From: an uncultured virus (IMG/VR IMGVR_UViG_3300034062_004002)
Taxonomy: Duplodnaviria > Heunggongvirae > Uroviricota > Caudoviricetes
Virus record (IMG/VR): IMGVR_UViG_3300034062_004002
Length of the DNA stretch: 64,000 nucleotides
Reading direction: 5' to 3' (one strand)
Made by a program: the position numbers and the translations under genes
Notes under the pieces: model-generated
Databases searched by the model: none
The model's input: only the letters and a program-made list of their open reading frames with translations
Told to the model about the DNA's origin: nothing
Shown here: one piece after another, positions 7,634 to 61,260 of the stretch
Layout of the letters: the number at the start of each line of letters is the position of its first letter
Numbering within the stretch: position 1 is the stretch's first letter

Positions 7634-8235
7634 TGAGGATTGGTATTGAAATAAATGGGGTTCTAAGGAACACAATTGGTAAGATTGAACAGACATATCA
7701 AAAATTTTTAATTGATAAAACAGATGGTATTGAAAATAAGGACTCATTTGAATATGGAATGACTTTACCTGTCGATAGTTTGGTTTTAAAAAACCATTTT
7801 AAATTCGAAAATGATGAGGAGTTATTTTCATTTTTATATGAAGAATTTCCAATGGAAATTTTTGGTCACGCTCAATCATCAGAATATTCAACATTTAACG
7901 ATTTAAATGACGTATATATTAATCTACGAGATAATCACGATTTGATTATTGTTTCGGACGAAATTGGTAAATCTAAACCGGCATCTTTATTTTTCATATC
8001 TAAGTTTGGTTGTCAGTTAGAAAAAATAAAATTTTATAGTAATTATACAATTAATTCTATGTGGGATGAAATTGACCTTTTACTTACATCAAATCCCGCA
8101 TTATTATTAGAATATCCGTCAGATAAAATACTAATTAAATACGAAACTGACTATAATAAAAACATAAAAACTTCCCATTGTATTAAATCACTTAAGGAAT
8201 TGGAAGACAAATTAAAAGAGATTATAACATGTTAA
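7633..8235 (+). CDS. HAD-fold 5'(3')-nucleotidase-like protein with degenerate catalytic motif
   Basis: N-terminus MRIGIEINGVLRN aligns with the HAD motif I IGIDxDGVL, but both Asp residues are replaced. Confidence 0.5.
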   Translation: MRIGIEINGVLRNTIGKIEQTYQKFLIDKTDGIENKDSFEYGMTLPVDSLVLKNHFKFENDEELFSFLYEEFPMEIFGHAQSSEYSTFNDLNDVYINLRDNHDLIIVSDEIGKSKPASLFFISKFGCQLEKIKFYSNYTINSMWDEIDLLLTSNPALLLEYPSDKILIKYETDYNKNIKTSHCIKSLKELEDKLKEIITC

Positions 8236-8498
8236 AAATATTAGGAGAACACTATTACTTAGATTTGGAAAAAATCGAGGAGTTCACAAATGTAACTCCA
8301 TCAGAAAGTTTTACGGGTGTTTCTGAAAATCATATAAGCGTTGTTAAGTATGATATAATTAAACTACTTATTGAAATTTTAATGAGCGAAAATGAACAGA
8401 TTGATGAGACATTAGGTATAAAAAGTAAGGAGGTGACCATACCATTTAAACTAGCATTTAATAGTTTGATAAATAAAAAATTAATAAACAAATACTAA
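8229..8498 (+). CDS. hypothetical protein
   Basis: 89-aa ORF overlapping the upstream gene within the operon. Confidence 0.7.
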   Translation: MLKILGEHYYLDLEKIEEFTNVTPSESFTGVSENHISVVKYDIIKLLIEILMSENEQIDETLGIKSKEVTIPFKLAFNSLINKKLINKY

Positions 8499-26741: not shown

Positions 26742-26933
26742 ATGCTAATAATCAAAGTGGAAAAGGGTAATCTCGAAAGAGCCCTAAAAATGTACAAAAG
26801 TAAGGTCATTAAAACAAGACAAATGTCTGAATTAAATGGACGTAAAACATTCGTTAAAAATTCTGTGAAAAATAGAGAAATAATGAAGAAATCAAAATAC
26901 GTTCAACAAAAGTTTAAATCTAACGAAGATTAA
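26742..26933 (+). CDS. rpsU: phage-encoded ribosomal protein bS21
   Basis: 63-aa basic protein MLIIKVEKGNLERALKMYKSKV...RKTFVKNSV..KKSKY of the Bacteroidota-type S21 pattern; antisense to the flanking head genes. Confidence 0.88.
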   Translation: MLIIKVEKGNLERALKMYKSKVIKTRQMSELNGRKTFVKNSVKNREIMKKSKYVQQKFKSNED

Positions 26934-38524: not shown

Positions 38525-40564
38525 ATGATAGAATCAAAAGATGGTAACGGACCTATTAAAGATAAAGGAAGTAGTGGTGATTCTGCCACACCTGTTTTAG
38601 ACAACTTTAGTAGAGACCTAATTAAATTAGCCGAAGAAGGTAAATTAGACCCTGTAATAGGTCGAGAGAGAGAAATAACGAGAATCGCTCAAATCCTTTC
38701 AAGACGCAAGAAAAACAACCCAATCATTATCGGTGAACCAGGTTGTGGTAAAACCGCAATTGCCGAAGGATTGGCGATTAAAATTTTTAACGGAGATTGT
38801 CCAAGAAATTTAATGGATAAACGAATATTATCTTTAGATATGACTTCAATAGTTGCTGGGACAAAATATCGTGGACAATTTGAGGAACGTATGAAGGTAA
38901 TCATTGAAGAACTTCAAAACGCACCAAGTATTATTATTTTTATCGATGAAATACACACAATTGTTGGTGCAGGTAATTCATCTGGTTCAATGGACGCATC
39001 AAATATCTTTAAACCCGCACTTGCAAGGGGAGAAATCCAATGTATTGGGGCAACAACTTTAGATGAGTATCGTAAGAATTTTGAAAAAGACGGAGCCTTA
39101 GAAAGACGATTCCAAAAGGTAATTGTCGATTCCGCAACAAAAGAGGAAACAATCCAAATCCTACAACACAGTAAAGAGAGATACGAAAATTATCATAAAG
39201 TAAAATATTCTGACGAAATCTTATCACTATGTGTTGATTTAGCTGAACGATATATCACAGATAGAGAATTTCCAGATAAGGCGTTCGATATTATTGATGA
39301 GGTTGGAGCTAGAAGTCAAGTTGAGGTGAAGATGCCCGAAATTATTGAGAAGTTAAAAGAACAGGCTCAGGACATTAAACAAGAAAAACTTAATGTTGTT
39401 AAAAAACAAAACTATGAAGAAGCCGCAAGTCTAAGAGATAAGGAAAGACGAATTTTAGATAAGTTAGATTCAGAAAAGAAAAAATTTGAGTCTGAATTAC
39501 AAACACAAAAGAAAGAGGTTACTGTCGAATTAGTATACGAAGTTGTTTCAAATATGACTAAGATTCCACTATCTAAATTAAATGCTAATGAGACTCAATT
39601 ATTGGCCAAATTAGACGAAAGATTAGGTAGTAAAGTTATTGGTCAATCTGAAGCGGTGTCAAGAATTGCAAAGTCTATTAGAAGAAATAGATTGGGTATT
39701 AAAGACCCTAACAAACCAATTGGGTCTTTTATTTTCTTGGGGTCAACAGGTGTTGGTAAAACACATTTGGCAAAACAATTGGCTAAAGAAATGTTTGGTA
39801 GTGAGGAGAATTTGATTAGAATGGATATGTCAGAATTCCAAGAAAAACATACCATATCTCGTTTAATTGGCGCTCCTCCAGGATATGTTGGTTATGATGA
39901 AGGAGGACAATTAACCGAACAGGTTAAAAACAAACCTTATTCTGTAATCTTATTTGATGAGATTGAAAAAGCAAACAAAGACATCTTTTCAACATTGTTA
40001 CAAGTATTAGACGATGGTCATATTACTGACGGATTAGGTAGAAAAATTAACTTTAAAAATTGTGTCATCATTATGACTTCAAATATTGGAGTTAAAAAAC
40101 TACAGGATTTTGGGACAGGAGTTGGTTTTAAAACTTCATCAAACACTTACGTTAAGGAAGAACATAAACGAGACATGTTGAAAAAAGAACTTCAAAAATT
40201 CTTTGCTCCTGAATTTTTAAACAGAATTGACGAGGTCGTTATTTTTAACACATTAAAACGAGATGAAGTTAAACAAATCGTTAAATTAGAAATGGATAAA
40301 CTTTGTGAAAGATTAGTTAAATTAAAATATAACATAACTTATGATGAATCCGTATTGGATTTAATTTCAGAAGTTGGTTTTGATGAAACCTATGGTGCAA
40401 GACCATTAAAGAGAGCTATCCAAGACAAAGTTGAGGATTTTATTTCTGAAGAAGTTTTAAAAGGAGTTATTCTTGAGGACGTTAGTTATATTCTATATGT
40501 CGATAACACCGATGTTAAACTAAAGATAGTTAAAAAGACTAAAAAGAAAAAAGGGGAAAATTAA
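38525..40564 (+). CDS. clpC: ClpC-like AAA+ unfoldase lacking the N-terminal Clp-repeat domain
   Basis: LDPVIGR, GEPGCGKT, FIDEIH, UVR motif NYEEAASLRD, GSTGVGKT, GAPPGYVGY, GVGF loop, PEFLNRID, YGARPLKR. Confidence 0.88.
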   Translation: MIESKDGNGPIKDKGSSGDSATPVLDNFSRDLIKLAEEGKLDPVIGREREITRIAQILSRRKKNNPIIIGEPGCGKTAIAEGLAIKIFNGDCPRNLMDKRILSLDMTSIVAGTKYRGQFEERMKVIIEELQNAPSIIIFIDEIHTIVGAGNSSGSMDASNIFKPALARGEIQCIGATTLDEYRKNFEKDGALERRFQKVIVDSATKEETIQILQHSKERYENYHKVKYSDEILSLCVDLAERYITDREFPDKAFDIIDEVGARSQVEVKMPEIIEKLKEQAQDIKQEKLNVVKKQNYEEAASLRDKERRILDKLDSEKKKFESELQTQKKEVTVELVYEVVSNMTKIPLSKLNANETQLLAKLDERLGSKVIGQSEAVSRIAKSIRRNRLGIKDPNKPIGSFIFLGSTGVGKTHLAKQLAKEMFGSEENLIRMDMSEFQEKHTISRLIGAPPGYVGYDEGGQLTEQVKNKPYSVILFDEIEKANKDIFSTLLQVLDDGHITDGLGRKINFKNCVIIMTSNIGVKKLQDFGTGVGFKTSSNTYVKEEHKRDMLKKELQKFFAPEFLNRIDEVVIFNTLKRDEVKQIVKLEMDKLCERLVKLKYNITYDESVLDLISEVGFDETYGARPLKRAIQDKVEDFISEEVLKGVILEDVSYILYVDNTDVKLKIVKKTKKKKGEN

Positions 40565-42901: not shown

Positions 42902-43315
42902 GGGGGTAAATTGGAATTGACTGACATAGTTGGTTGTTCGGGGCATGTCAAGGCTGAGCTAACCTTGTAAAACTGGTTTAAATCGATATACGGCAACGTT
43001 ATCAACAAACTTTCTGCAGTAGGATTAATCCGCACTGAAGAAAATGTTTCAGTAGCCTAAGGCGAAAAAAACAACGGGTAGATAGACTTATACCTAGGAA
43101 CAGAACAGTCTTCATGGTGTGACATCTACCATAAAAGGTGTAAACTCTAACCAATCAGAGGATAATCAGATGGCAGAGGATAAGTTCTCAGTAAACCGAA
43201 CTGTATAATAAGGGAACTGTGGGATTTCGGATTGTTAGATTAAACAATGACCTAAACATGTAGTCCTTAATAATCGTTATGGACAACTACGAGGGTTCGA
43301 GTCCCTCTATCTCCA
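42902..43315 (+). ncRNA. ssrA: tmRNA
   Basis: 5' GGGGGTAAATTGGAATTGAC; acceptor GGGGGTA/TATCTCC with G3.U; T-arm GAGGG-TTCGAGT-CCCTC; tag frame 42992-43060 GNVINKLSAVGLIRTEENVSVA*; CCA not encoded. Confidence 0.92.
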
Positions 43316-43372
43316 CATTTAACATTTTTGTTCTTTTACTATATTTTGAAATATTTATAGTGAAAGAACAAA

Positions 43373-44885: not shown

Positions 44886-44888
44886 TAG

Positions 44889-44961
44889 TTGCGGGAGAAG
44901 GATTCGAACCTCCGACCTAAAGGTTATGAGCCTTTCGAGCTACCAACTGCTCTATCCCACT
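44889..44961 (-). tRNA. tRNA-Met(CAT), initiator-like
   Basis: AGTGGGA TA GAGC AGTTGGTA GCTC G AAAGG CTCATAA CCTTT AGGTC GGAGG TTCGAAT CCTTC TCCCGCA A; 1:72 mismatch and A11-U24. Confidence 0.93.
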
Positions 44962-44977
44962 ATATTTGGCTATAAAT

Positions 44978-45838
44978 AAGGCTGAGATTACACCTGTTTA
45001 TGAGAAACTTTAGTAGGATTATTGATTCCCCACATATCCACTTCCTTTTGAGAAGTATTCCTCAGTGACGATTGGTTAGACCAATCACTTCTTGAGATAT
45101 CAGTTACTCTCTTATTACTTAACTCTCTTCAAAGATGCCTCTCCGACTCTTCCTTATGGGAATAGAGGTTTTTGGTAAGAATACAGTCAGACTTGCGGTC
45201 TTCATGTGCAATGAACGGCTCATTACTATGTAGTCACCTTTCACTGATACCTAACGGACACTTTTGCTTATTTTTAGTTAATTTTACTTAATTTAGTATA
45301 AGTTACGTGTTGTGGATGAATCAAAGTAGCGGTCCGTTGAAGGATTCGTTCTCTTTTGGAAAACGAAATACCAAACTACTCCGTGAGATGTCCCCATCTC
45401 CATATTTTAAGATTACTTCGTACCAAGACTTTGGTAAGTCTTTGATAAGGACAGTAGCGACACCACTCGTTCTCTATCTTACCTTTCGGTTTTAAGTCCC
45501 CTCTTATATTGGTAACCGCAATCATGTAGTTGGAGACCACATTTTTTGCTTGATACCTATGGGTTATTCTTATTGGAGTTCCCTCCTCAGACTGACAATC
45601 CACATTGCCGTTCCACCCAACCACTTTCCCTAAAGCGTTGCCCTCAGTACTAAAGGTCGGATGATATCCCACTTGTGTACTCGACCTCGGTTTCCCAAGA
45701 CGCGAACCTACTAACACTTGAAGATTCACTTTATCCCACTTTCGTGGTTTATTTAACGACCATACACGGCCGATTATCTTTTTTCAGTTATCTCAGAATC
45801 AACCCGAAGGTCTCATCATAAACATCCTGATGGATAAT
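44978..45838 (-). ncRNA. giant structured RNA, probably GOLLD
   Basis: About 860 nt, GC-richer than the flanks, many stems with GAAA/GCAA/UUCG loops; two domains split by an AU linker (~45270-45305); ends AGGTGTAATCTCAGCCT directly before a tRNA. Family assigned from size, context and recalled motifs; ends approximate. Confidence 0.68.
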
Positions 45839-48569: not shown

Positions 48570-48598
48570 AAAAAAGTATGACATTACGTCATACTTTT
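48570..48598 (-). terminator. intrinsic terminator
   Basis: AAAAAAGTATGAC-attac-GTCATACTTTT. Confidence 0.75.
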
Positions 48599-49628
48599 AA
48601 AGTTTTCTAAACTCAGGTTTTATTAATCCCCATATAATATGGTCATATGGTTTTTTATCCCACATTGCAAACATTACAGAACGTAACTTTGGTTTAATAT
48701 TGTTTAGAACCATAAATTCAGCAAATTCTTTTTTTGTTGGTTCAAGTTCTTTGTCTCCAAATTTACCATATCTAAAACCATCGTGACTTTTTCCACAATA
48801 TTCAGATATTTGGAAGAAACCATATTTTAAATCTTTAACATAAGATTTAATCTTATTATAAGATTCATCGGGAACATCTTTTAATAAATCCAATACATCT
48901 TCACCATTCTTCAAATACTCCCAAATACCAGTTGTGGTAACATTAGTCATTATTTTGTGAAGACGAAGATACTCAATACCTTTAACTTTGATTCTATCCC
49001 CATTGGAGAATTTAACCACAAACCCCTCTTGGTCGTTTTTAACCATTTCTTTTAGTTCTTTATAGTCTTTGATACCATCGTATTTTTTAACCACGTCAAA
49101 CCCGTATTCTCCCCACATTTCTATATCGTATTCTTTTCCTGCGGTATCAAAGGTTCCTAATAGGACTAACCCTTCATAATCACCATAATCTACTACTATT
49201 TGATTATTTTTATAAAGCACTTCAAAACAAAAAGTCAGATGTCTGAACATTATGTCAGTATTATATTTTTTTAAAAGTTCTTTCGCTTTGATTGATTGGT
49301 CAGAAGTAAATGACCCACGAGTGGCAACAACCCATTGACCTTCATACCAAAATACAATACCCAATGAGCCGTCCATTTTTTCCCATACCTCAAACTTTTC
49401 AGTTGGGGTGTGTTTACCCTCTTCAATGTTAAAGAATTTTTTAAAAGGACGAGCAATTATATTCCCTTCATTGTCGGTTACCAATCCACGACACATCAAT
49501 GTTATTTCGTCCCAAAGATTTTCATACTGAACTTTTTCGCTATAGTTCCATATGGTTAATGGAAGGGTTGGATGTATTTGTTTATACACCAACCCTTTCT
49601 CATGATACTCGTTTAATTTTTCTAACAT
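48597..49628 (-). CDS. rnlA: RNA ligase 1 (T4 Rnl1-like)
   Basis: CRGL, ARPFKKFFN, EKMDGSLG (motif I), ATRGSF, EGFVV, KVKG..Y. Confidence 0.9.
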   Translation of the reverse strand: MLEKLNEYHEKGLVYKQIHPTLPLTIWNYSEKVQYENLWDEITLMCRGLVTDNEGNIIARPFKKFFNIEEGKHTPTEKFEVWEKMDGSLGIVFWYEGQWVVATRGSFTSDQSIKAKELLKKYNTDIMFRHLTFCFEVLYKNNQIVVDYGDYEGLVLLGTFDTAGKEYDIEMWGEYGFDVVKKYDGIKDYKELKEMVKNDQEGFVVKFSNGDRIKVKGIEYLRLHKIMTNVTTTGIWEYLKNGEDVLDLLKDVPDESYNKIKSYVKDLKYGFFQISEYCGKSHDGFRYGKFGDKELEPTKKEFAEFMVLNNIKPKLRSVMFAMWDKKPYDHIIWGLIKPEFRKL

Positions 49629-50372: not shown

Positions 50373-51383
50373 TTAAATACCATAAGGTGTTTTACTAAAA
50401 ATAATATTTTCTTTTAATTCGGTATGGTTTGATATAAAGTTTTTAATGTTTTCCTGCATTTCATCTGAATTATCATAAGTATAAATCACATTATTATAGA
50501 TTAAGTTAAAAACCCCAACTTTTTCCAAAATATCAATTTTATTAAAAATCAAATTTGTGACTCCATTTATGTTAATTGATTTAATAATATCATCCACATT
50601 TAACCAATTAACCTGTCTCGGTCTTCCTGTCGTTGCACCAAATTCTCCACCCTCTTGTCTTATTTTCTCAAAATATTCTGATTTACCTTCAAAAGATTTT
50701 AACCCCACATATGTTCTATATGCTTTGGCAATACCATATACTTTTCTAATTTTTTGTGGTGGAACACCATTTAATACCGCAGAACCAACGGTACAATGTG
50801 AAGATGTGACATATGGATAATCTCCCCAATCAATATCCAATTCAAAACCTTGGGCTCCTTCAAAAAGAATCGATACTTCATTATTCCCATACAACTCATC
50901 GTAAATATCAATAACCATATTCCTATCATTTAAACGGGAATTGTTCTCGGCTCTAACTCCAACTCTATAATATTTATCACGATAAGAAGGACCATTTCCG
51001 GTTTTTGTTGTTCCAATTTCAGTGTCTTTGGAATCTTCCTCAATATGACTCTTGGTGATAATGTGAACTCGTTTATCAACAAATAAATTACCGTCTACTT
51101 TAATCCCATTAGATTCCAGTTCGTTAATTTCCTCAAATAGTTTATCAATATTTACAACACACCCGGGACCTATAATTGATTTTATACCGTAAAGCACCCC
51201 ACAAGGGATAAGATGGGTTACAAATTTTTTATCATTATGATATATTGTGTGTCCGGCATTACCACCACCATTATACCTAATTACTGTTGTATAATCACCT
51301 GTTTTACATAAGGAATGTGTGACTTTACCTTTACCTGTGTCTCCCGCTTGTAGGTCAACAACAACATCTGCGAATTTAATCAT
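50373..51383 (-). CDS. purA: adenylosuccinate synthetase (short form)
   Basis: GDTGKGK, GGGNAGHT, IGTTKTGNGPSY, FEGAQG, DWGDYPYVTSS, EFGATTGRPR, NKID. Confidence 0.92.
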   Translation of the reverse strand: MIKFADVVVDLQAGDTGKGKVTHSLCKTGDYTTVIRYNGGGNAGHTIYHNDKKFVTHLIPCGVLYGIKSIIGPGCVVNIDKLFEEINELESNGIKVDGNLFVDKRVHIITKSHIEEDSKDTEIGTTKTGNGPSYRDKYYRVGVRAENNSRLNDRNMVIDIYDELYGNNEVSILFEGAQGFELDIDWGDYPYVTSSHCTVGSAVLNGVPPQKIRKVYGIAKAYRTYVGLKSFEGKSEYFEKIRQEGGEFGATTGRPRQVNWLNVDDIIKSININGVTNLIFNKIDILEKVGVFNLIYNNVIYTYDNSDEMQENIKNFISNHTELKENIIFSKTPYGI

Positions 51384-51876: not shown

Positions 51877-52284
51877 TTATACAGTATGTTCGATTTGTAC
51901 TCTGATACAATTTTGTGGTAAACAATTGATGTGGCGATAGTTATTGATGTAACCCATCATATTCGCGCTACCGATAGCGTTTGCTGAGTGTATTACTACA
52001 TCTACAACAGGTTCACCATCCATCCATTTTTCCACTAACCATTTAGTACAATCCATTCCTGTTTTTTCAGTAATGTTATCGTAATTCAATTCGTAGTTGT
52101 GGTAAACATTTTTATGCCATTCCGCCATCGCAGTATCACCTAAGTCATGGTCCAAAGAGATTACATCAATATTTTCGAATCCAACTTCAGTCACCAATTT
52201 AACGAAATCTTCATAGTTACGAACAACCAACCAACTTTTGTCTTTTGGACTTCTAACATCGTCCAAGTAAATTTTCTTTTTCAT
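51877..52284 (-). CDS. cyclic-phosphate-processing receiver-domain protein
   Basis: IYLDDVRSP, ISLDHDLG, TGMDCTKWL, HSANAIG. Confidence 0.8.
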   Translation of the reverse strand: MKKKIYLDDVRSPKDKSWLVVRNYEDFVKLVTEVGFENIDVISLDHDLGDTAMAEWHKNVYHNYELNYDNITEKTGMDCTKWLVEKWMDGEPVVDVVIHSANAIGSANMMGYINNYRHINCLPQNCIRVQIEHTV

Positions 52285-52313
52285 AACACAAATATACAAA
52301 TAATTTTTGAAAT

Positions 52314-54316: not shown

Positions 54317-54404
54317 TGTTGGAGACAGGATTCGAACCTGTATTCAGGGACTTAAAGTAAATTCCCCCTCTAAGTTTGTATGGCAACCATTACGCCACTC
54401 CAAC
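54317..54404 (-). ncRNA. tRNA-like RNA with non-canonical anticodon domain
   Basis: Perfect GTTGGAG/CTCCAAC acceptor + A; D-arm with TAATGGT; ACAGG-TTCGAAT-CCTGT T-arm; ~40-nt middle without a 7-nt anticodon loop. Confidence 0.7.
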
Positions 54405-56246: not shown

Positions 56247-58061
56247 TCAACCTTTTCTTCTGTTATTACTACTAAAAATATTTGGAGGAGAACTTTTTTT
56301 ATTTTTTTTAACGTCACCAAACTCTCTTGATTGATAGACTAATGAATCTTTTTTAATTTCGGTTATCTTCATTCTGTCAACAGGTTTATTTTCTCTAATA
56401 GGTTTTATATGATTTACAGGGATATAAACTCCTTTTTGTTGGGTAATTTTATTTATTAAATCATAATCAACCTTTGTTTTAGGTAATTTGGGGTTAGTTA
56501 GAATATTACTCAACACCTCATTAACAACCATCTTTTTATGTTTAATTTCATCGAACCCTTCAATAGGGTTAAAATGATTGACAAAAACTTCGTAGAATTG
56601 AGATATCTGTAACATAGGTAAAGGTCCAAATGTTTTTTTATTTTCAATGAGGTTATTATATTTAGTCCTCACTATTGACCCATAACCTGTCTGTCTTGAT
56701 TGTGTTAAACTATTTTGATGTAGTCTTCTATAAAATAAAACTGTTGGGCTATTAATTGATTTACAATTATTTTTATATAACCTACCCATAAAATCTGTAT
56801 CAGCCGATGTTCTCCAACCTTCAAACCCATTCATAGATAAGAATAACTCTTTTTTTATACTAAAAACCCCTTCACCCCAAAAGTTTTCTTTACTTACAAA
56901 ATTATTGTTAGGTGTTTCTCCTGTAAAATTTAAATATTTAGGTCTTACGAAATCAATAAACATTTGTAATCTAAGAATTTCTTTAATCATATTTTCCCCC
57001 ATAACATCATCGGAATCAAAAAATAGAATTATATTTGAATTAGAATTTTTAACTAATGTGTTTTTAACAATGTATGGTCCAACATTTTGTTGGAAATAGA
57101 AAAATCGTATCCTATCATCAAAAATATTATGTTTAATAAACTCTAAAGTTTTTTCACAATTATCGATACCCACTAAAATTTCACAATTCAACGACTTTAC
57201 CGACTCAATAACTGACGATAAACATTGTATTATAAATTCGGTATTATTAAACGTAGGTATTATTATTGAAATCTCTTTGTTTGTCAGTATGTTAATTTGA
57301 GGTCGGTTAATATATTTTAATTTAATATCATTAAAAGACTCACCATTAACTTCAATAAAAGGAGCAATCTTTAACACATTTAAAGGTCCATGTTGGTTTT
57401 TTATTTGTTTTATTTTCTTTTTTTCGTGATATTTTTTTCTTAAAGGAGAATTCATACCAGTAATACCACCACCCGTTAAATTCGACTCATGTCTTCTATA
57501 AAAAAGACCCACCGTATTTAAAGTTTTTATTTTTTTTCCACTGGACAACATCCTCCAATAAAACTCACCATCCGAAGCACAAACCCACGGCTCAAACCCA
57601 TTTGAGTCAGTAAAAACTTTTTTAATTATTCCAAAAGTACCTGAATGGTAGTTGGAATCAGTCATAACCAATTCTATATTAGTAGGTAATGTAAGTTTTC
57701 CTTGGAATGTCCTATACCCATATCTAACATAATCATAAGATTTTAAAGAGTCGATAACCTTAGTTACTAACGTAGTTAACATAACATCATCAGAATCAAA
57801 AAATAATAGTTTATCATATTTTGAAATTGATACCAAAGTATTACGAATAATATACGTCCCGACTTTTTCGGTAAAAAAAAGAATTTTAATATTTGGGGGG
57901 AATGTTTTCTTAATTAAATTAAGATATGTTAAGGTTTTTTCACAGTTATCAATACCAACAAGTAACTCATATTCAGTATTTCCACAAGACTTTACTATAG
58001 AATCTAAAGCCTCTTTAATATAAAGAGTGTTATTGTGTGCGGTTACAATTATTGATATCAT
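56247..58061 (-). CDS. tandem two-domain GT2 glycosyltransferase
   Basis: The unit SII..T.NNT..I, LVGIDNC, VG.YI..NTL, FFDSDDVM, GFE.W..D.(E/D)F, YRR.H occurs twice. Confidence 0.85.
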   Translation of the reverse strand: MISIIVTAHNNTLYIKEALDSIVKSCGNTEYELLVGIDNCEKTLTYLNLIKKTFPPNIKILFFTEKVGTYIIRNTLVSISKYDKLLFFDSDDVMLTTLVTKVIDSLKSYDYVRYGYRTFQGKLTLPTNIELVMTDSNYHSGTFGIIKKVFTDSNGFEPWVCASDGEFYWRMLSSGKKIKTLNTVGLFYRRHESNLTGGGITGMNSPLRKKYHEKKKIKQIKNQHGPLNVLKIAPFIEVNGESFNDIKLKYINRPQINILTNKEISIIIPTFNNTEFIIQCLSSVIESVKSLNCEILVGIDNCEKTLEFIKHNIFDDRIRFFYFQQNVGPYIVKNTLVKNSNSNIILFFDSDDVMGENMIKEILRLQMFIDFVRPKYLNFTGETPNNNFVSKENFWGEGVFSIKKELFLSMNGFEGWRTSADTDFMGRLYKNNCKSINSPTVLFYRRLHQNSLTQSRQTGYGSIVRTKYNNLIENKKTFGPLPMLQISQFYEVFVNHFNPIEGFDEIKHKKMVVNEVLSNILTNPKLPKTKVDYDLINKITQQKGVYIPVNHIKPIRENKPVDRMKITEIKKDSLVYQSREFGDVKKNKKSSPPNIFSSNNRRKG

Positions 58062-58681: not shown

Positions 58682-59362
58682 TTAACTATTAAAAAATTTA
58701 TTTCTTACATTATACAATTGAGCTTTATTCCCTAATTTTTGGAATTTTAATACAGGACTATACGTTAAAATATCTTTTTTAGTTGAGTTCTCTTTCCCAA
58801 TCCATCGTTCCCAATAATACCTATGACTTGTTGGTTCAGGGGGAGTAAGATGTTCTTTAACATACCTTGACCTAATCCAAAAAAAATTATACCAAATAAA
58901 CCCAAATTCACTAGGAAAAATTCCACCAATGTCTAAAGTTTTATTTTTTAAAAATTCGTTTAAATATTCTTCATAATTTTCAATTGTGTATTTAAATAAT
59001 TGTCCTCTTAAAATATTCCTTTCAGGATATTTTACATTAGAAAACATACCTTTAGTATGAAAATATAAAATTATTGAATCCTCTTTTTGGGATAAGTCGT
59101 AGATTGATTTAATTCCTGGATATTCATACATATTTTTTTCAACTCTATTGAATATTTGAATCTTCTTAAACTTACTCCATAAATGTTGTTTTATTCGTTT
59201 TAACTGTTGGTCATTACACTGTAGACTAATATAAATTTCATCGGCATCATCATATATCTTAGAATTTTTTAATGACCATAATTGTTCTAAAACAATTTCC
59301 TCCCATTTATCCTCTAATAAGGATGCGAAATATACTATTTTTACTTTTTCGTCACCAATCAT
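58682..59362 (-). CDS. glycosyltransferase-like hypothetical protein
   Basis: YEYPGI, ILYFHTKG, WYNFFW..S.Y, RYYWERWIG. Confidence 0.55.
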   Translation of the reverse strand: MIGDEKVKIVYFASLLEDKWEEIVLEQLWSLKNSKIYDDADEIYISLQCNDQQLKRIKQHLWSKFKKIQIFNRVEKNMYEYPGIKSIYDLSQKEDSIILYFHTKGMFSNVKYPERNILRGQLFKYTIENYEEYLNEFLKNKTLDIGGIFPSEFGFIWYNFFWIRSRYVKEHLTPPEPTSHRYYWERWIGKENSTKKDILTYSPVLKFQKLGNKAQLYNVRNKFFNS

Positions 59363-59443
59363 AATATCAATCTCTTTATATCAATTAAATATACTTTCGT
59401 TTCGAATCTTGTAAATTATTACTCGGTGGAGTTATATAAAACA

Positions 59444-59532
59444 CAAAAGGGTGTCTTTCAACACCCTATTTGCTTGATTTGGATACCCCCTTTCTTTAAT
59501 TTGGTTTATCCCGTGTGAGTAATTACCTCACA
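59444..59532 (-). other. 3'-terminal non-coding element: hairpin, 16S-3'-end-complementary tract, terminator
   Basis: TGTGAG/CTCACA hairpin; AGAAAGGGGGTATCCA (59495-59480); AGGGTGT/ACACCCT-TTTG terminator. Confidence 0.6.
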
Positions 59533-59538
59533 GGTATT

Positions 59539-61260
59539 TTAAGAAGTTGCTAACGCTTTTTGTTTTAACGTGTCGGTAGCAACATTCATCTTATTTTTAA
59601 CTCCTCCAAGTAACGGACAGATAAAACTTCCTAACGCTTCTTCGATTTTAGAACCCAAAGAAGTTTCGTCTAACATATCAACAATTGAGTTTCTAAGTAT
59701 ATCGTAGAACGGACCTTCAAGACCTTTTTCGTGAGTTAATTTTCTAACCGTCCCTTCAGCAACTGACTTTGAAATTAATTTTGTTAAGAAATTACAATCA
59801 GTTAATTTAGGAATGTCCCCAATCGGTAAGTTACCAATAGCGGTGATAACAATACTTCCTAACCATCCGTTAGAATCCATAGGAGTTAAATGTTCAACTA
59901 ACCATTTAGCAATGTATTCTTTAAAATATTCCATAATACCATCAGGTGCATGACCAAATAAACCTTTCAATGTATCCCAAAATCCTTCGTTAATAATTTT
60001 TTTGTCAAATCCTTGTGAGTTTAAATAAGTCATTTCAGATAACAATTCATCAAAAAACTTATCTTTTTGTTTTTTAGTTTTAAGACTAACATTTTCTGAA
60101 ATAATTGATAATCTAGCCTTAACTATTTTACCCTCACTTAACACATTTCTTTCTTTAGTTTTTTTAGTTTCAATTAAACTTTCTCTAATTAGATTTTTTA
60201 ATTGTTTTTCTTTACTTTCTCTTTGAACTGTTGACCCTGCATTAACATTTAAACTATAGTCAGTTAGACCACCTGTTTGTGTTTGTACGGGATTCGCAAA
60301 TTGTAATCTTTCCGCCGATTTTGCAAATTTAGGGTAATTATTTATACAATTTCTAATTACAGGTTTCATCATTTTAAGTCTTTCGGGACTTAACTCTAAT
60401 TTTTTATCATACGCATTACCGTAAAGTTCAATCGCATTTTTACAAGAAACTTTTCTTGTTTTTTCATCACCTGATTTAGCACTGTTCACCGCTACATCTA
60501 ATTTTTTAATAACGTCCGCATCAGCTAAAATATTAGGATTGTAGTACATGTAATACGTTGTTTGAAAATCCTTATAAGTTTCAGGATTATCCGATTCAAG
60601 TGATAAGTCAGCAACGATATAACCAAAAGAACTTCCTTCAGGTAAATCTTTTTTCTCAATCCAACCTAATGTTTTCCTTCTTTCAACAGTTTTAGTTGAT
60701 AAGTCTAAATCGTATTGTTGCGCCCCTTTTTTAACCCAAACTTTTGCGACACCAATATTATTTCCTAAGATTTTAACAAGTTCCTCAGCATAAGGTGAAT
60801 TCTTATTTTCAATAGTTGTAATTGCATCGGATAGTTTAACTAATGTCCAACCTTCACCTACAGGTTTTTCAACACCCTCGTTCCAAGCAACAACTTGATT
60901 TGATGTAAATTCAGCTAAACGGCCTAAAGCTTTTTGTTGGTCAGGAGTTAAAATAGAATCTTGAGTTTTATTTAATTTTTCGCAATACCATTTTGTTGTT
61001 CTAACAATTTTACCTGCTTTATCTCCTGTGGTTCTCCACTCTCTTTTTCCATCAGGGAAGTCAAATACGTGAGGATTAGCTTTATTATCGGGGTTTGTTG
61101 ATTGTTGGTAAACAACCTCTCCACCCCCCTTTGGGTCAATAAATGGTCCGGTGACTTTAGGCCAACATCCTGCGGTAAACGCTTTTTGAAGTTTTTCTTC
61201 TTTGAATTGAGCTGCCCCTGGATTAAGTACGTCTTCTTTTATAAATCTTTTATTTTTCAT
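59539..61260 (-). CDS. hypothetical protein, probable virion/internal protein
   Basis: 573 aa; FIKED, LIRESLIE, IISE, IINEGFWD. Confidence 0.7.
   Translation of the reverse strand: MKNKRFIKEDVLNPGAAQFKEEKLQKAFTAGCWPKVTGPFIDPKGGGEVVYQQSTNPDNKANPHVFDFPDGKREWRTTGDKAGKIVRTTKWYCEKLNKTQDSILTPDQQKALGRLAEFTSNQVVAWNEGVEKPVGEGWTLVKLSDAITTIENKNSPYAEELVKILGNNIGVAKVWVKKGAQQYDLDLSTKTVERRKTLGWIEKKDLPEGSSFGYIVADLSLESDNPETYKDFQTTYYMYYNPNILADADVIKKLDVAVNSAKSGDEKTRKVSCKNAIELYGNAYDKKLELSPERLKMMKPVIRNCINNYPKFAKSAERLQFANPVQTQTGGLTDYSLNVNAGSTVQRESKEKQLKNLIRESLIETKKTKERNVLSEGKIVKARLSIISENVSLKTKKQKDKFFDELLSEMTYLNSQGFDKKIINEGFWDTLKGLFGHAPDGIMEYFKEYIAKWLVEHLTPMDSNGWLGSIVITAIGNLPIGDIPKLTDCNFLTKLISKSVAEGTVRKLTHEKGLEGPFYDILRNSIVDMLDETSLGSKIEEALGSFICPLLGGVKNKMNVATDTLKQKALATS

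What the first reader, a model, noticed from the sequence alone, without database searches (positions are those of the whole stretch)
59444..59532. Non-coding element complementary to the 16S rRNA 3' end: possible anti-SD decoy working with phage bS21
Seen: after the last gene of a virion-type operon comes a hairpin, then AGAAAGGGGGUAUCCA, then a terminator, with no start codon at SD distance. The tract lies partly in the loop of a GGAUA/UAUCC stem. Known: 16S 3' ends read ...UGGA(U/A)CACCUCCUUUCU, so the tract gives 11 contiguous pairs (one G.U) plus up to 5 more past a bulge; Bacteroidota mRNAs mostly lack SDs because bS21/bS18/bS6 hide the anti-SD. I saw no such SD before protein genes here. 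Inference: an RNA that captures 30S subunits with an exposed anti-SD (bS21-free or immature). It could silence SD-driven host rpsU feedback, favour loading of phage bS21, or protect the mRNA 3' end. With bS21, the leaderless genes, tmRNA and the variant initiator tRNA it suggests a coordinated ribosome-takeover system.
Basis: partly seen in the sequence, partly recalled or inferred. Interest (0 to 1): 0.78.

Follow-up and report, generated by a model that had tools for sequence, protein, structure and literature searches.

The report
Phage hairpin RNA matching 16S tail
A freshwater phage that carries its own ribosomal protein S21 also carries a small, strongly conserved folded RNA, with no gene behind it, whose exposed loop and stem read as the mirror image of the very end of the host's 16S ribosomal RNA, so it may be a tool for grabbing or re-tuning host ribosomes.

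Summary
On the minus strand, 3 nt after the stop codon of a 573-aa gene, lie hairpin P1, hairpin P2 and an intrinsic terminator (59538..59438). AGAAAGGGGGUAUCCA (59495..59480) sits in the P2 loop and 3' arm. It is not an isolated tract. It belongs to a ~105-nt structured RNA with no Rfam match, found after the same gene in 93 of 95 related phage or metagenome loci. It is single-copy in two complete ~300-kb genomes that also encode bS21. Of 21 tested base pairs, 11 show compensatory changes (0 of 500 shuffles reach that). No start codon lies 3-15 nt behind the tract in any of 58 variants. The tract is the best 16S-tail complement in the window (-22.5 against -17 to -19 kcal/mol for the next sites). 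In 23 of 58 variants the match covers all 16 nt of a common Bacteroidia 16S tail, and the opposite P2 strand resembles that tail. In another clade the match is only 9+5 bp and ranks 38th in its own genome. Best reading (about 0.4): a self-masked antisense to the 16S 3' tail, resembling the host rpsU extended SD but without a gene. The decoy and takeover story is untested.

The parts
59427..59538 (-). Whole conserved RNA element (3' UTR of the 573-aa gene): ACC, P1, P2, linker, terminator
   Evidence: Covariance model R1 hit of 106.5 bits, the only strong hit in the window. 93 of 95 related loci carry it. No Rfam family matches.
59539..61260 (-). Upstream 573-aa gene of unknown function; its stop codon (59541-59539) lies 3 nt before the element
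   Evidence: ORF list. 101 homologues, none named. No Pfam or PHROG match. AF2 pLDDT 68.6 and no Foldseek PDB match.
59533..59535 (-). Invariant ACC just 5' of P1. Predicted to pair with the GG of the P2 5' arm when P2 is opened (alternative conformation)
   Evidence: ACC in 57 of 58 unique variants. C-G pairs with no variation in the RNAalifold consensus. The pairing appears in cofolds with the 16S tail.
59514..59532 (-). Hairpin P1 (UGUGAG / CUCACA, 7-nt loop GUAAUUA)
   Evidence: Folds. At least 12 different helix sequences occur among relatives. All 3 outer pairs that were tested show changes on both sides.
59503..59512 (-). P2 5' strand GGGAUAAACC, which resembles the 5' part of the 16S 3' tail (GGAAUACC.. 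/ GGAUUACC..)
   Evidence: P2 variants are GGGAUA/UAUUCC, GGGAUU/AAUUCY, GGUAUU/AAUACC and GGAAUA/UAUUUC. 16S tails.
59480..59495 (-). The tract AGAAAGGGGGUAUCCA. AGAAAG lies in the apical loop, GG pairs with CC of AACC, GG faces AA, and UAUCC is the P2 3' arm
   Evidence: mean unpaired probability is 0.63-0.91 for AGAAA and 0.19-0.23 for the middle Gs. The core AGAAAGGGG is present in 52 of 58 variants. Best 16S-tail complement in the window.
59468..59479 (-). Conserved single-stranded linker (AAUCAAGCAAAU here; AAAUCUARCAAA in most relatives)
   Evidence: Alignments. UCUA in 56 of 58 variants; the window and L011 carry UCAA. Its role is unexplained.
59438..59467 (-). Intrinsic terminator: 8-bp hairpin with a GAAA loop, then a U tract
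   Evidence: Terminator scan. 6 of 7 stem pairs show compensatory changes.
26742..26933 (+). Context: phage ribosomal protein bS21 gene, on the opposite strand inside the head-gene cluster
   Evidence: PF01165, 36.6 bits against a cut-off of 27. The layout matches that described for freshwater bS21 phages (PMC9723584, passages).

Best explanation
The element is a new, conserved, ~105-nt structured RNA at the 3' end of one phage mRNA. Its middle hairpin (P2) is built like a self-masked antisense to the 3' tail of host 16S rRNA. The apical loop displays AGAAAG, the complement of the last six nucleotides of the tail. The G run and the 3' arm continue that complement. The 5' arm is a weakened copy of the tail itself: two A-G mismatches and a conserved G.U pair. 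Proposed mechanism (inferred, not shown): a free 16S tail first pairs with the loop. Free tails are expected on 30S subunits that lack bS21 or are immature, because in Bacteroidia the tail is otherwise buried under bS21, bS18 and bS6. Pairing then spreads and displaces the weaker 5' arm. The freed GG of that arm pairs with the invariant ACC upstream of P1, which locks the open form. The RNA would thus behave like the extended SD of host rpsU but without a gene. It would hold such subunits on a phage transcript and compete with rpsU mRNA for them. The hairpin-plus-U-tract at the end also terminates transcription of the upstream gene.
For: SHOWN. (1) The structure is real. 98.5% of cells are paired, 11 of 21 pairs have changes on both sides, and 0 of 500 shuffles reach the observed values. 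G.U pairs place it on the mRNA-sense strand. (2) It is conserved. Among protein-found relatives, 45 of 48 sources carry it, 2 are divergent and 1 contig is truncated. After adding pattern- and protein-found viral loci, 93 of 95 sources carry it. These loci span upstream proteins down to 33-40% identity. It is single-copy in two complete genomes, both of which encode bS21. (3) The loop's 3' half and the G run are nearly invariant, while the loop's 5' half varies. (4) No start codon lies 3-15 nt downstream in 0 of 58 variants, and 1-nt indels break any common reading frame. (5) On complementarity: the F. johnsoniae tail is ACCUCCUUUCU, and its test SD oligo AGAAAGGAGGU differs from the tract by one A-to-G change (methods passage of PMC7797042). 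23 of 58 variants pair contiguously with all 16 nt of the GGAAUA tail type, a type found in 23 of 55 sampled Bacteroidia tails. Net cofold gain after opening P2 is -17.5 to -20.2 kcal/mol in that clade and -16.0 for the window. Shuffled tails give a mean of -1 to -6. The tract is the top site in the window by 4-5 kcal/mol. (6) Authentic host rpsU leaders carry the same kind of sequence in 8 of 30 sampled genomes, for example AGAAAGGAGGU and GAGAGGAGGU, at -12.4 to -17.6 kcal/mol, and they tolerate G.U pairs. The literature gives 9-13 bp and -14 to -21 kcal/mol (PMC9976891, section 32). (7) Variants lean towards natural tail types. UGUUCC arms fit GGAACA tails best, the GGGAUU clade fits GGAUUA tails best, and the single G-to-A change in L003 faces the tail position that varies between C and U. 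(8) The alternative ACC-GG pairing is invariant. INFERRED: binding to 30S, strand displacement, competition with rpsU.
Against: No experiment or read data show binding, and none show a discrete RNA species. The RNA-run contigs were too sparse to tell. In the clade of complete genome G002 (25 of 58 variants with a 9-bp run), the match is 9 bp, a 2x2 mismatch, then 5 bp. It ranks only 38th of 142 sites at or below -14 kcal/mol in that 308-kb genome. An ungapped count of 14 or more pairs out of 16 is common by chance in the window, so only contiguous-run and energy measures carry weight. The central G is never A: GGAGG occurs in 1 of 58 variants. That G pairs with a C of AACC, so structure alone can explain it. 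The L112 type changed both P2 arms (GGUAUU/AAUACC) in a way that keeps the hairpin but worsens the fit to every sampled tail. The conserved linker and P1 loop are not explained by this model. Half of the tract is base-paired in the free RNA. Normal Bacteroidia ribosomes hide the tail (PMC7797042, PMC9976891), so targets may be rare. Pairing as far as G1529-G1530 may not be sterically possible on an assembled subunit (my own judgement, untested).
Confidence: 0.4

Rival explanations
1. It is a 3'-end module of the upstream mRNA that combines termination with stabilisation, or a site bound by a phage or host protein (for example autoregulation by the 573-aa protein). Under this reading the purine loop serves tertiary or protein contacts, and its likeness to an SD is a by-product of a purine-rich loop facing a pyrimidine-rich rRNA tail.
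For: The element always sits directly after the stop codon of the same gene, whatever lies downstream: glycosyltransferase genes, a convergent gene, or others. It ends in a good terminator. Several conserved parts have no role in the 16S model: UCUA in the linker (56 of 58) and a UA-containing P1 loop. In G002 the 16S match is at background level. Purine tracts pair promiscuously with U-rich sequences through G.U pairs. The L112 type keeps the hairpin and loses fit to the tail.
Against: A plain stabiliser does not need about 12 invariant unpaired nucleotides across proteins that have diverged to 33-40% identity. It also does not explain why both P2 strands resemble the two partners of an SD/anti-SD helix, in register. 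Nor does it explain the conserved G.U pair (31 of 32) where a G-C pair would be more stable, or why 23 variants match all 16 tail nucleotides contiguously.
Confidence: 0.3
2. P2 mimics the SD/anti-SD duplex and binds ribosomal protein bS21 (host or phage) or another platform protein, as reported for stem P6 of OLE RNA. It would then sequester host bS21 or buffer the phage's own copy.
For: OLE RNA P6 carries an anti-SD copy paired to an SD-like strand and is bound by bS21 (PMC12054373, passages). Here the 5' strand GGGAUAAACC or GGGAUUAACC resembles GGAAUACC or GGAUUACC of real tails, and the 3' strand is SD-like. All genomes in which both were sought carry both the element and bS21: the window, G002 and G003.
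Against: The 'anti-SD' strand lacks the CCUCC core; it has AACC. The invariant AGAAAG has no partner inside the hairpin, so a duplex mimic gives no reason for it to be conserved. In Bacteroidia, bS21 holds a single-stranded tail rather than a duplex (PMC7797042, passages). The element lies 33 kb from the phage bS21 gene.
Confidence: 0.15
3. It is a small RNA cut from the 3' UTR that base-pairs with other mRNAs, phage or host, through the loop or the linker.
For: It has the typical anatomy of 3'-UTR-derived small RNAs (recalled knowledge): conservation starting at the stop codon, a single-stranded conserved stretch, and a terminator with a U tail.
Against: No complementary site lies in the 64-kb window beyond chance. 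There were 5 matches with up to 2 mismatches against 3.1 expected, and the only exact match is the element's own opposite strand. No promoter-like site or processing evidence was found. The host genome is unknown, so host targets could not be searched.
Confidence: 0.1

Closest known systems
Extended Shine-Dalgarno sequence of rpsU (bS21 gene) in Bacteroidia, used by bS21-lacking ribosomes for autoregulation (PMC9976891; PMC7797042)
   Same: Both are purine tracts complementary to nearly the whole 16S 3' tail, starting at its last nucleotide. The predicted strength is similar: -12.5 to -16.7 here for the 11-nt tail, -12.4 to -17.6 in 8 of 30 sampled rpsU leaders, and -14 to -21 in the paper. 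Both occur in genomes that otherwise lack SDs.
   Different: No start codon and no ORF follow it (0 of 58). It lies in a 3' UTR before a terminator. It is half buried in a hairpin whose other strand resembles the tail. It has GGGGG instead of GGAGG. It is phage-encoded.
SD/anti-SD duplex mimic in stem P6 of OLE RNA, bound by bS21 (PMC12054373, passages read)
   Same: Both are intramolecular helices in a non-coding RNA whose two strands resemble an SD and the 16S tail. Both are connected with bS21.
   Different: OLE carries an exact CCUCCU copy, while here the tail-like strand is degenerate (AACC). Here the SD-like strand is the well conserved one, and it extends into an unpaired loop. Organism, size and context all differ. 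bS21 binding was not tested here.
STAB-SD, an ORF-less SD-like mRNA stabiliser of Bacillus thuringiensis cry genes (search listing only; the original work is recalled, not read)
   Same: Both are SD-like sequences without a start codon, thought to act by binding the 16S 3' end on a transcript.
   Different: STAB-SD lies in the 5' UTR and protects downstream RNA in a host that uses SDs. This element lies at the 3' end, is structured, and occurs in a host lineage whose ribosomes normally ignore SDs.
Stem-loop antisense RNAs that start pairing at an exposed loop and have imperfect upper stems (recalled general knowledge)
   Same: Both show a recognition loop on a stem weakened by an internal loop and a wobble pair, followed by a terminator.
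   Different: The proposed target is rRNA rather than an mRNA or a plasmid primer. The element is part of an mRNA 3' UTR.

Membership tests
Ribosome-binding site of a gene (SD plus start codon) | Complementarity to the 16S anti-SD | tested here: met
   7-11 contiguous pairs with ACCUCCUUUCU in all 58 variants. Top site in the window.
Ribosome-binding site of a gene (SD plus start codon) | Start codon about 4-12 nt downstream, followed by a conserved ORF | tested here: not met
   0 of 58 variants have ATG, GTG or TTG 3-15 nt after the G run. 1-nt indels between variants break any common frame.
Any Rfam family | Match to a covariance model at or near its gathering score | tested here: not met
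   Nothing at gathering thresholds across the window. The best hit in 59300-59620 at E up to 10 was 19.3 bits, against a threshold of 80.
Intrinsic (rho-independent) terminator | GC-rich hairpin followed by a U tract at the end of a gene | tested here: met
   Stem 59467-59448 plus UUUGUGUUUU, with compensatory changes in the stem. Actual termination was not measured.
rpsU-type extended SD | 9-13 bp helix with the 16S 3' tail at about -14 to -21 kcal/mol | tested here: met
   11 bp and -16.7 to -16.8 kcal/mol in the window. 9 bp and -12.5 in the other main clade. Criterion taken from PMC9976891, section 32.
rpsU-type extended SD | Precedes the bS21 coding sequence | tested here: not met
   The phage bS21 gene lies 33 kb away and has no SD upstream. 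A terminator follows the tract.
OLE-P6-type SD/anti-SD mimic | Helix with an exact copy of the host anti-SD paired to an SD-like strand | tested here: inconclusive
   The SD-like strand is present. The opposite strand shares GGAUUA or GGAAUA and CC with real tails but lacks CCUCC.
OLE-P6-type SD/anti-SD mimic | Binding of bS21 | not testable with these tools
   No RNA-protein prediction or assay was available.
STAB-SD-type stabiliser | Located in the 5' UTR and protecting downstream RNA | tested here: not met
   The element lies after the stop codon, and only a terminator is downstream.

The most novel reading that the evidence does not exclude
A phage-encoded, self-masked antisense RNA aimed at the 16S rRNA 3' tail. 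It would trap the tail of bS21-free subunits, or pull the tail out of the bS21/bS18/bS6 pocket. That would shut off the host's rpsU feedback and ease replacement of host bS21 by the phage copy. Sequence variants would be tuned to the tail type (GGAAUA, GGAUUA, GGAACA...UUUCU or ...UUUUU) of each phage clade's host. This would be the 'product that facilitates bS21 exchange' that McNutt et al. speculated about (PMC9976891, discussion passage).
Probability: 0.2. Interest if true: 0.9.

Novelty: new variant of a known kind. Interest (0 to 1): 0.8.

Why it matters
bS21 is the ribosomal protein most often carried by phages, and how it redirects host ribosomes is an open question. In Bacteroidia the only known use of the anti-SD is rpsU autoregulation by bS21-less ribosomes. 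A conserved phage RNA that looks like that regulatory SD, but has no gene behind it, gives a concrete and cheap test of whether these phages interfere with that circuit. The strains, ribosomes and assays already exist for Flavobacterium johnsoniae. Whatever its function turns out to be, it is a well-supported new structured RNA family for phage and RNA catalogues. If the link to tail type holds, it could also become a host-prediction marker.

Tried and rejected
Rfam found nothing. The INPHARED phage collection gave no DNA match. The window's own assembly is not held, and the nearest record, G001, is a 22-kb fragment without this region.

Identity of the 573-aa protein: no Pfam or PHROG match, AF2 pLDDT 68.6, and no Foldseek PDB match with E at or below 0.001.

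RNA evidence: 7 metatranscriptome runs hold parts of the stretch. Laying 4 of them gave only a few Logan contigs at depth 2-14. One 151-nt contig covers 59382-59532 and so crosses the terminator. This shows neither transcript ends nor that the signal is RNA rather than DNA.

A micro-ORF behind the tract was rejected. Read-through of the upstream stop codon was rejected because the frames differ among relatives. A regulated attenuator for downstream genes was rejected because the downstream context varies and is often a convergent gene. A DNA-level role was rejected because conserved G.U pairs exist only on the sense strand.

A pseudoknot between the P1 loop and the linker (UAGA:UCUA) is possible in only 29 of 58 variants and is absent from the window, so it is left open. 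Pairing of the tract with the terminator's 3' arm was seen by eye as 6-8 bp, but it is not specific for purine/U-rich partners and does not hold in the L074 type.

No trans targets in the window beyond chance. The ungapped in-register pair count was rejected as a statistic because scores of 14 or more out of 16 are common by chance.

The route to host rpsU through the phage bS21 protein found only phage-like proteins and one 2.8-kb MAG contig. I used that MAG only as a handle to sample its class. Literature searches for a described motif of this kind found none.

Full report
WHAT IS THERE. The genes around the finding run on the minus strand. Read on that strand, a 573-aa ORF (59539..61260) ends with TAA at 59541-59539. 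AAU follows, then ACC at 59535-59533. Next is hairpin P1: arm UGUGAG, loop GUAAUUA, arm CUCACA (59532-59514). After P1 come C and GGGAUAAACC (59512-59503), an A-rich loop, and the tract AGAAAGGGGGUAUCCA (59495-59480). A linker follows, then a terminator hairpin (59467-59448) and UUUGUGUUUU. The 183-nt intergenic RNA folds better than its shuffles (z = -3.06; 1 of 200 shuffles folds as well). The terminator was also picked up by the consensus scan. The next gene (58682..59362) starts about 75 nt after the U tract, behind its own promoter-like site, and is followed by glycosyltransferases.

GENOMIC SETTING. The window is a T4-like phage. It has a gp23-type capsid protein, a gp20-type portal, a prohead protease and a large terminase. 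It also carries a GOLLD RNA, a tmRNA and two to three tRNAs. A 63-aa bS21 gene lies on the opposite strand inside the head-gene cluster (26742-26933, PF01165, 36.6 bits). That layout is the one described for freshwater 'bS21 phages' predicted to infect Bacteroidetes (PMC9723584; I read the abstract and passages; that text contains neither 'non-coding' nor 'tmRNA'). Window genes have A/U-rich leaders without SDs: 57 of 59 upstream regions are weaker than -7 kcal/mol against a tail motif. The bS21 gene itself has no SD.

THE TRACT IS PART OF A CONSERVED STRUCTURED RNA. I collected homologues of the 573-aa protein without regard to the RNA: 3 viral and 44 metagenome loci. The same element follows the stop codon in nearly all of them. 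A covariance model built from 26 sequences finds it at 86-122 bits in 45 of 48 sources. Two sources (L049, L050; upstream protein 33% identical) have a divergent version at 27 bits, and one contig ends before it. I then added 42 pattern-found and 21 protein-found viral loci and removed duplicates. After that, 93 of 95 sources carry it. There is one copy in the window. There is one strong match in each of two complete genomes, G002 (308,574 bp) and G003 (290,887 bp), and both encode bS21. The distance from the stop codon is 1-8 nt in most loci and about 10-19 nt in a few. The downstream neighbour varies: glycosyltransferase genes, a convergent gene, or others. The element therefore travels with the upstream gene.

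On a model-guided alignment of 32 sequences, the three helices are 98.5% paired. 11 of 21 pairs carry changes on both sides, and 0 of 500 shuffles reach any of the five measures. Sliding the 3' partner by 1-3 columns drops pairing to 43-61%. P1 occurs with at least 12 different helix sequences. P2 occurs as GGGAUA/UAUUCC, GGGAUU/AAUUCY, GGUAUU/AAUACC and GGAAUA/UAUUUC. Conserved G.U pairs (31 of 32 at one P2 position) put the structure on the mRNA-sense strand. No Rfam family matches. Five literature searches found no description of such a motif.

ANATOMY OF P2. Above the 5-6-bp lower stem, AA faces GG, AA or AG. Then the CC of the invariant AACC pairs with two Gs of the run, and a 12-15-nt loop closes the hairpin. 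The 5' half of the loop varies freely. The 3' half and the G run hardly vary. Among the 58 unique variants the tract reads AGAAAGGGGG in 27, AGAAAGGGG in 21, AGAAAGGGGGG in 4, GAAAGGGGG in 3, AAGAAGGGGGG in 2 and AAAAAGGGG in 1. In partition-function folds of 56 variants, AGAAA is mostly unpaired (mean 0.63-0.91), the middle Gs are mostly paired (0.19-0.23), and the last Gs lie in the internal loop.

NO GENE BEHIND IT. None of the 58 variants has ATG, GTG or TTG 3-15 nt after the G run; the nearest candidates lie 18-25 nt away, inside the terminator stem. One-nucleotide indels (UAUCC against UAUUCC, and the other clades) rule out a shared reading frame.

COMPLEMENTARITY TO 16S rRNA. Jha et al. 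probed F. johnsoniae 30S subunits with the oligo AGAAAGGAGGU and used ACCUCCUUUCU as the control. Their text names U1544 and C1543 as the last 16S nucleotides (PMC7797042, passages). The tract differs from that probe by a single A-to-G change, which gives a G.U pair. All 58 variants keep 7-11 contiguous pairs with this 11-nt tail, at -8.4 to -16.7 kcal/mol.

I then read real tails from genomes sampled evenly across the class Bacteroidia. Of the 62 read, 55 have a canonical CCUCC core. Among those 55, the nucleotides before ACCUCC read GGAACA in 23, GGAAUA in 23, GGAUUA in 5, GGACCA in 3 and GGAUCA in 1. Among the 50 canonical tails, the end reads UUUCU in 26 and UUUUU in 22. The five tails all end UUUCU. 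The other 7 of the 62 have altered cores.

Against these 16-nt tails, 23 of 58 phage variants pair contiguously over all 16 positions with the GGAAUA type, with one G.U pair. Three more (the GAAAGGGGG type) were mis-registered by my script and, by eye, pair over 15 positions. The window variant has a 1-nt shorter arm and pairs over 13 positions, then a bulge. After paying for opening P2, the cofold gain is -17.5 to -20.2 kcal/mol for the first group, -16.0 for the window, -14.5 for UGUUCC-type arms with GGAACA tails, and -8 to -13 for the GGGAUU clade with GGAUUA tails. Shuffled tails give means of -1 to -6. In the window the site stands alone: -22.5 against -17.2 to -18.6 for the runners-up.

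The P2 5' strand occupies the same register as the tail and resembles it. GGAUUAACC compares with GGAUUACCU, and L040 has GGAAUA exactly. It is weaker as a pairing partner because of two purine-purine mismatches and one G.U pair. In the cofolds, the GG released from P2 pairs with the invariant ACC (57 of 58 variants) and extends P1.

COMPARISON WITH THE HOST CIRCUIT. McNutt et al. report that rpsU of many Bacteroidia has an extended SD of 9-13 bp (-14 to -21 kcal/mol). They report that it is essentially the only strong SD in Flavobacteriales genomes and that ribosomes lacking bS21 translate it preferentially. They speculate that bS21 phages may displace host bS21 and that the feedback would counter this (PMC9976891; section 32 read in full, other passages read). 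In my own sample, 8 of 30 rpsU leaders have 8-11 contiguous pairs with the tail (-12.4 to -17.6 kcal/mol). Examples are AAAAGAAAGGAGGUGA and GAGAGGAGGU, and the latter tolerates a G.U pair even though those genomes' tails are canonical. The phage tract is therefore of the same kind and strength as the host's regulatory SD.

WHAT SPEAKS AGAINST READING TOO MUCH INTO IT. (i) In the second large clade (25 of 58 variants have a 9-bp run), the match is 9 bp, a 2x2 mismatch, then 5 bp. In its complete genome G002 the element ranks 38th of 142 sites at or below -14 kcal/mol, and many sites beat it on the 11-nt tail. (ii) A pyrimidine tail pairs with almost any purine tract through G.U pairs. An ungapped score of 14 or more out of 16 occurs about 29 times in the window, so I discarded that measure. 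(iii) GGAGG appears in only 1 of 58 variants. The central G pairs with a C of AACC, so structure alone explains it. (iv) The L112 type changed both P2 arms in a way that preserves the hairpin but worsens the fit to every sampled tail. (v) The linker (UCUA in 56 of 58) and the UA-containing P1 loop are conserved for reasons the 16S model does not give. (vi) There is no expression or binding evidence. The metatranscriptome contigs are too sparse. (vii) Hosts are unknown, so the apparent tuning of variants to tail types is a pattern, not a test.

MOST LIKELY MECHANISM. I commit, at about 0.4, to a self-masked antisense to the 16S 3' tail. Loop AGAAAG nucleates on the terminal CUUUCU of a free tail. 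Pairing then spreads through the G run and the 3' arm, the weaker tail-like 5' arm is displaced, and its GG is captured by ACC. The structure, the conservation, the lack of an ORF and the complementarity are shown. Binding, the conformational switch and any effect on rpsU or on bS21 exchange are inferred.

Rivals are a 3'-end stabiliser or protein-binding element whose SD likeness is incidental (0.3), an SD/anti-SD duplex mimic that binds bS21 as OLE RNA P6 does (0.15; PMC12054373, passages), and a 3'-UTR-derived small RNA with other targets (0.1). Against the duplex-mimic reading, the invariant AGAAAG has no partner within the hairpin.

NOVELTY AND VERDICT. The RNA is a new family: no Rfam match and no paper found. 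By kind it sits next to ORF-less SD-like elements (STAB-SD; search listing only, the original work is recalled), the rpsU extended SD and the OLE P6 mimic. It differs from each in position, masking, host biology and phage origin. I therefore file it as a new variant of a known kind, with a bolder reading kept open. Its decoy interpretation is partly supported and directly testable with existing Flavobacterium tools. No claim here rests on genome G092, which was flagged as unpublished.

Noticed in passing
window 44979-45383 (-), with tRNA-Met at 44888-44961 (-): A full-length GOLLD RNA (319 bits, model positions 1-416) lies directly beside a tRNA-Met gene. The tmRNA is 1.7 kb away at 42902-43318 (+).
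   Followed up: no
window 54317-54404 (-): Rfam calls a third tRNA (32.5 bits, just over threshold) that ARAGORN does not report. It may be a divergent or intron-bearing tRNA, or a tRNA-like element.
   Followed up: no
window 8417-8436 (+): This is the second-best anti-SD complement in the window. AAGUAAGGAGGUGA lies inside an 89-aa ORF (8229-8498) that has no family match, and no start codon sits at SD distance. It could be chance or another ribosome-contact site.
   Followed up: partly
window 56247-58061 (-): The GT2 glycosyltransferase gene is one of only two window genes with an SD-like upstream sequence. AAGGAG lies 8 nt before an in-frame GTG just upstream of the listed ATG. This may point to recent acquisition or to a different true start.
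   Followed up: no
G002 (loci L154), about 69,790-71,400 (+): A cluster of very G-rich repeats (runs such as GGGGGAAGGAGGGGAGGGGGG) gives many of the strongest anti-SD complements in that complete phage genome. Its nature is unknown.
   Followed up: no
L177, L202, L215, L225-L227, L229 (16S 3' ends of sampled Bacteroidia genomes): 7 of 62 sampled genomes have a 16S 3' end without the canonical CCUCC, for example CAUCUCC, AACUCC, or an A/U-only end. The nucleotides before ACCUCC and the last five nucleotides vary more than is usually assumed.
   Followed up: partly
L120 (2.8-kb contig binned in a Bacteroides MAG): This contig carries a bS21 gene 56% identical to the phage protein, in addition to the MAG's ordinary rpsU (two matches in G004). 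It is probably a phage fragment binned with the MAG.
   Followed up: no
window 38525-40564 (+), 48597-49628 (-), 50373-51383 (-), 51877-52299 (-): The phage encodes a ClpB-like double AAA+ protein, a T4 Rnl1-type RNA ligase, an adenylosuccinate synthetase and a cyclic-phosphate-processing receiver domain protein. Together with the tmRNA and tRNAs, this forms an RNA-repair and translation-oriented gene set.
   Followed up: no
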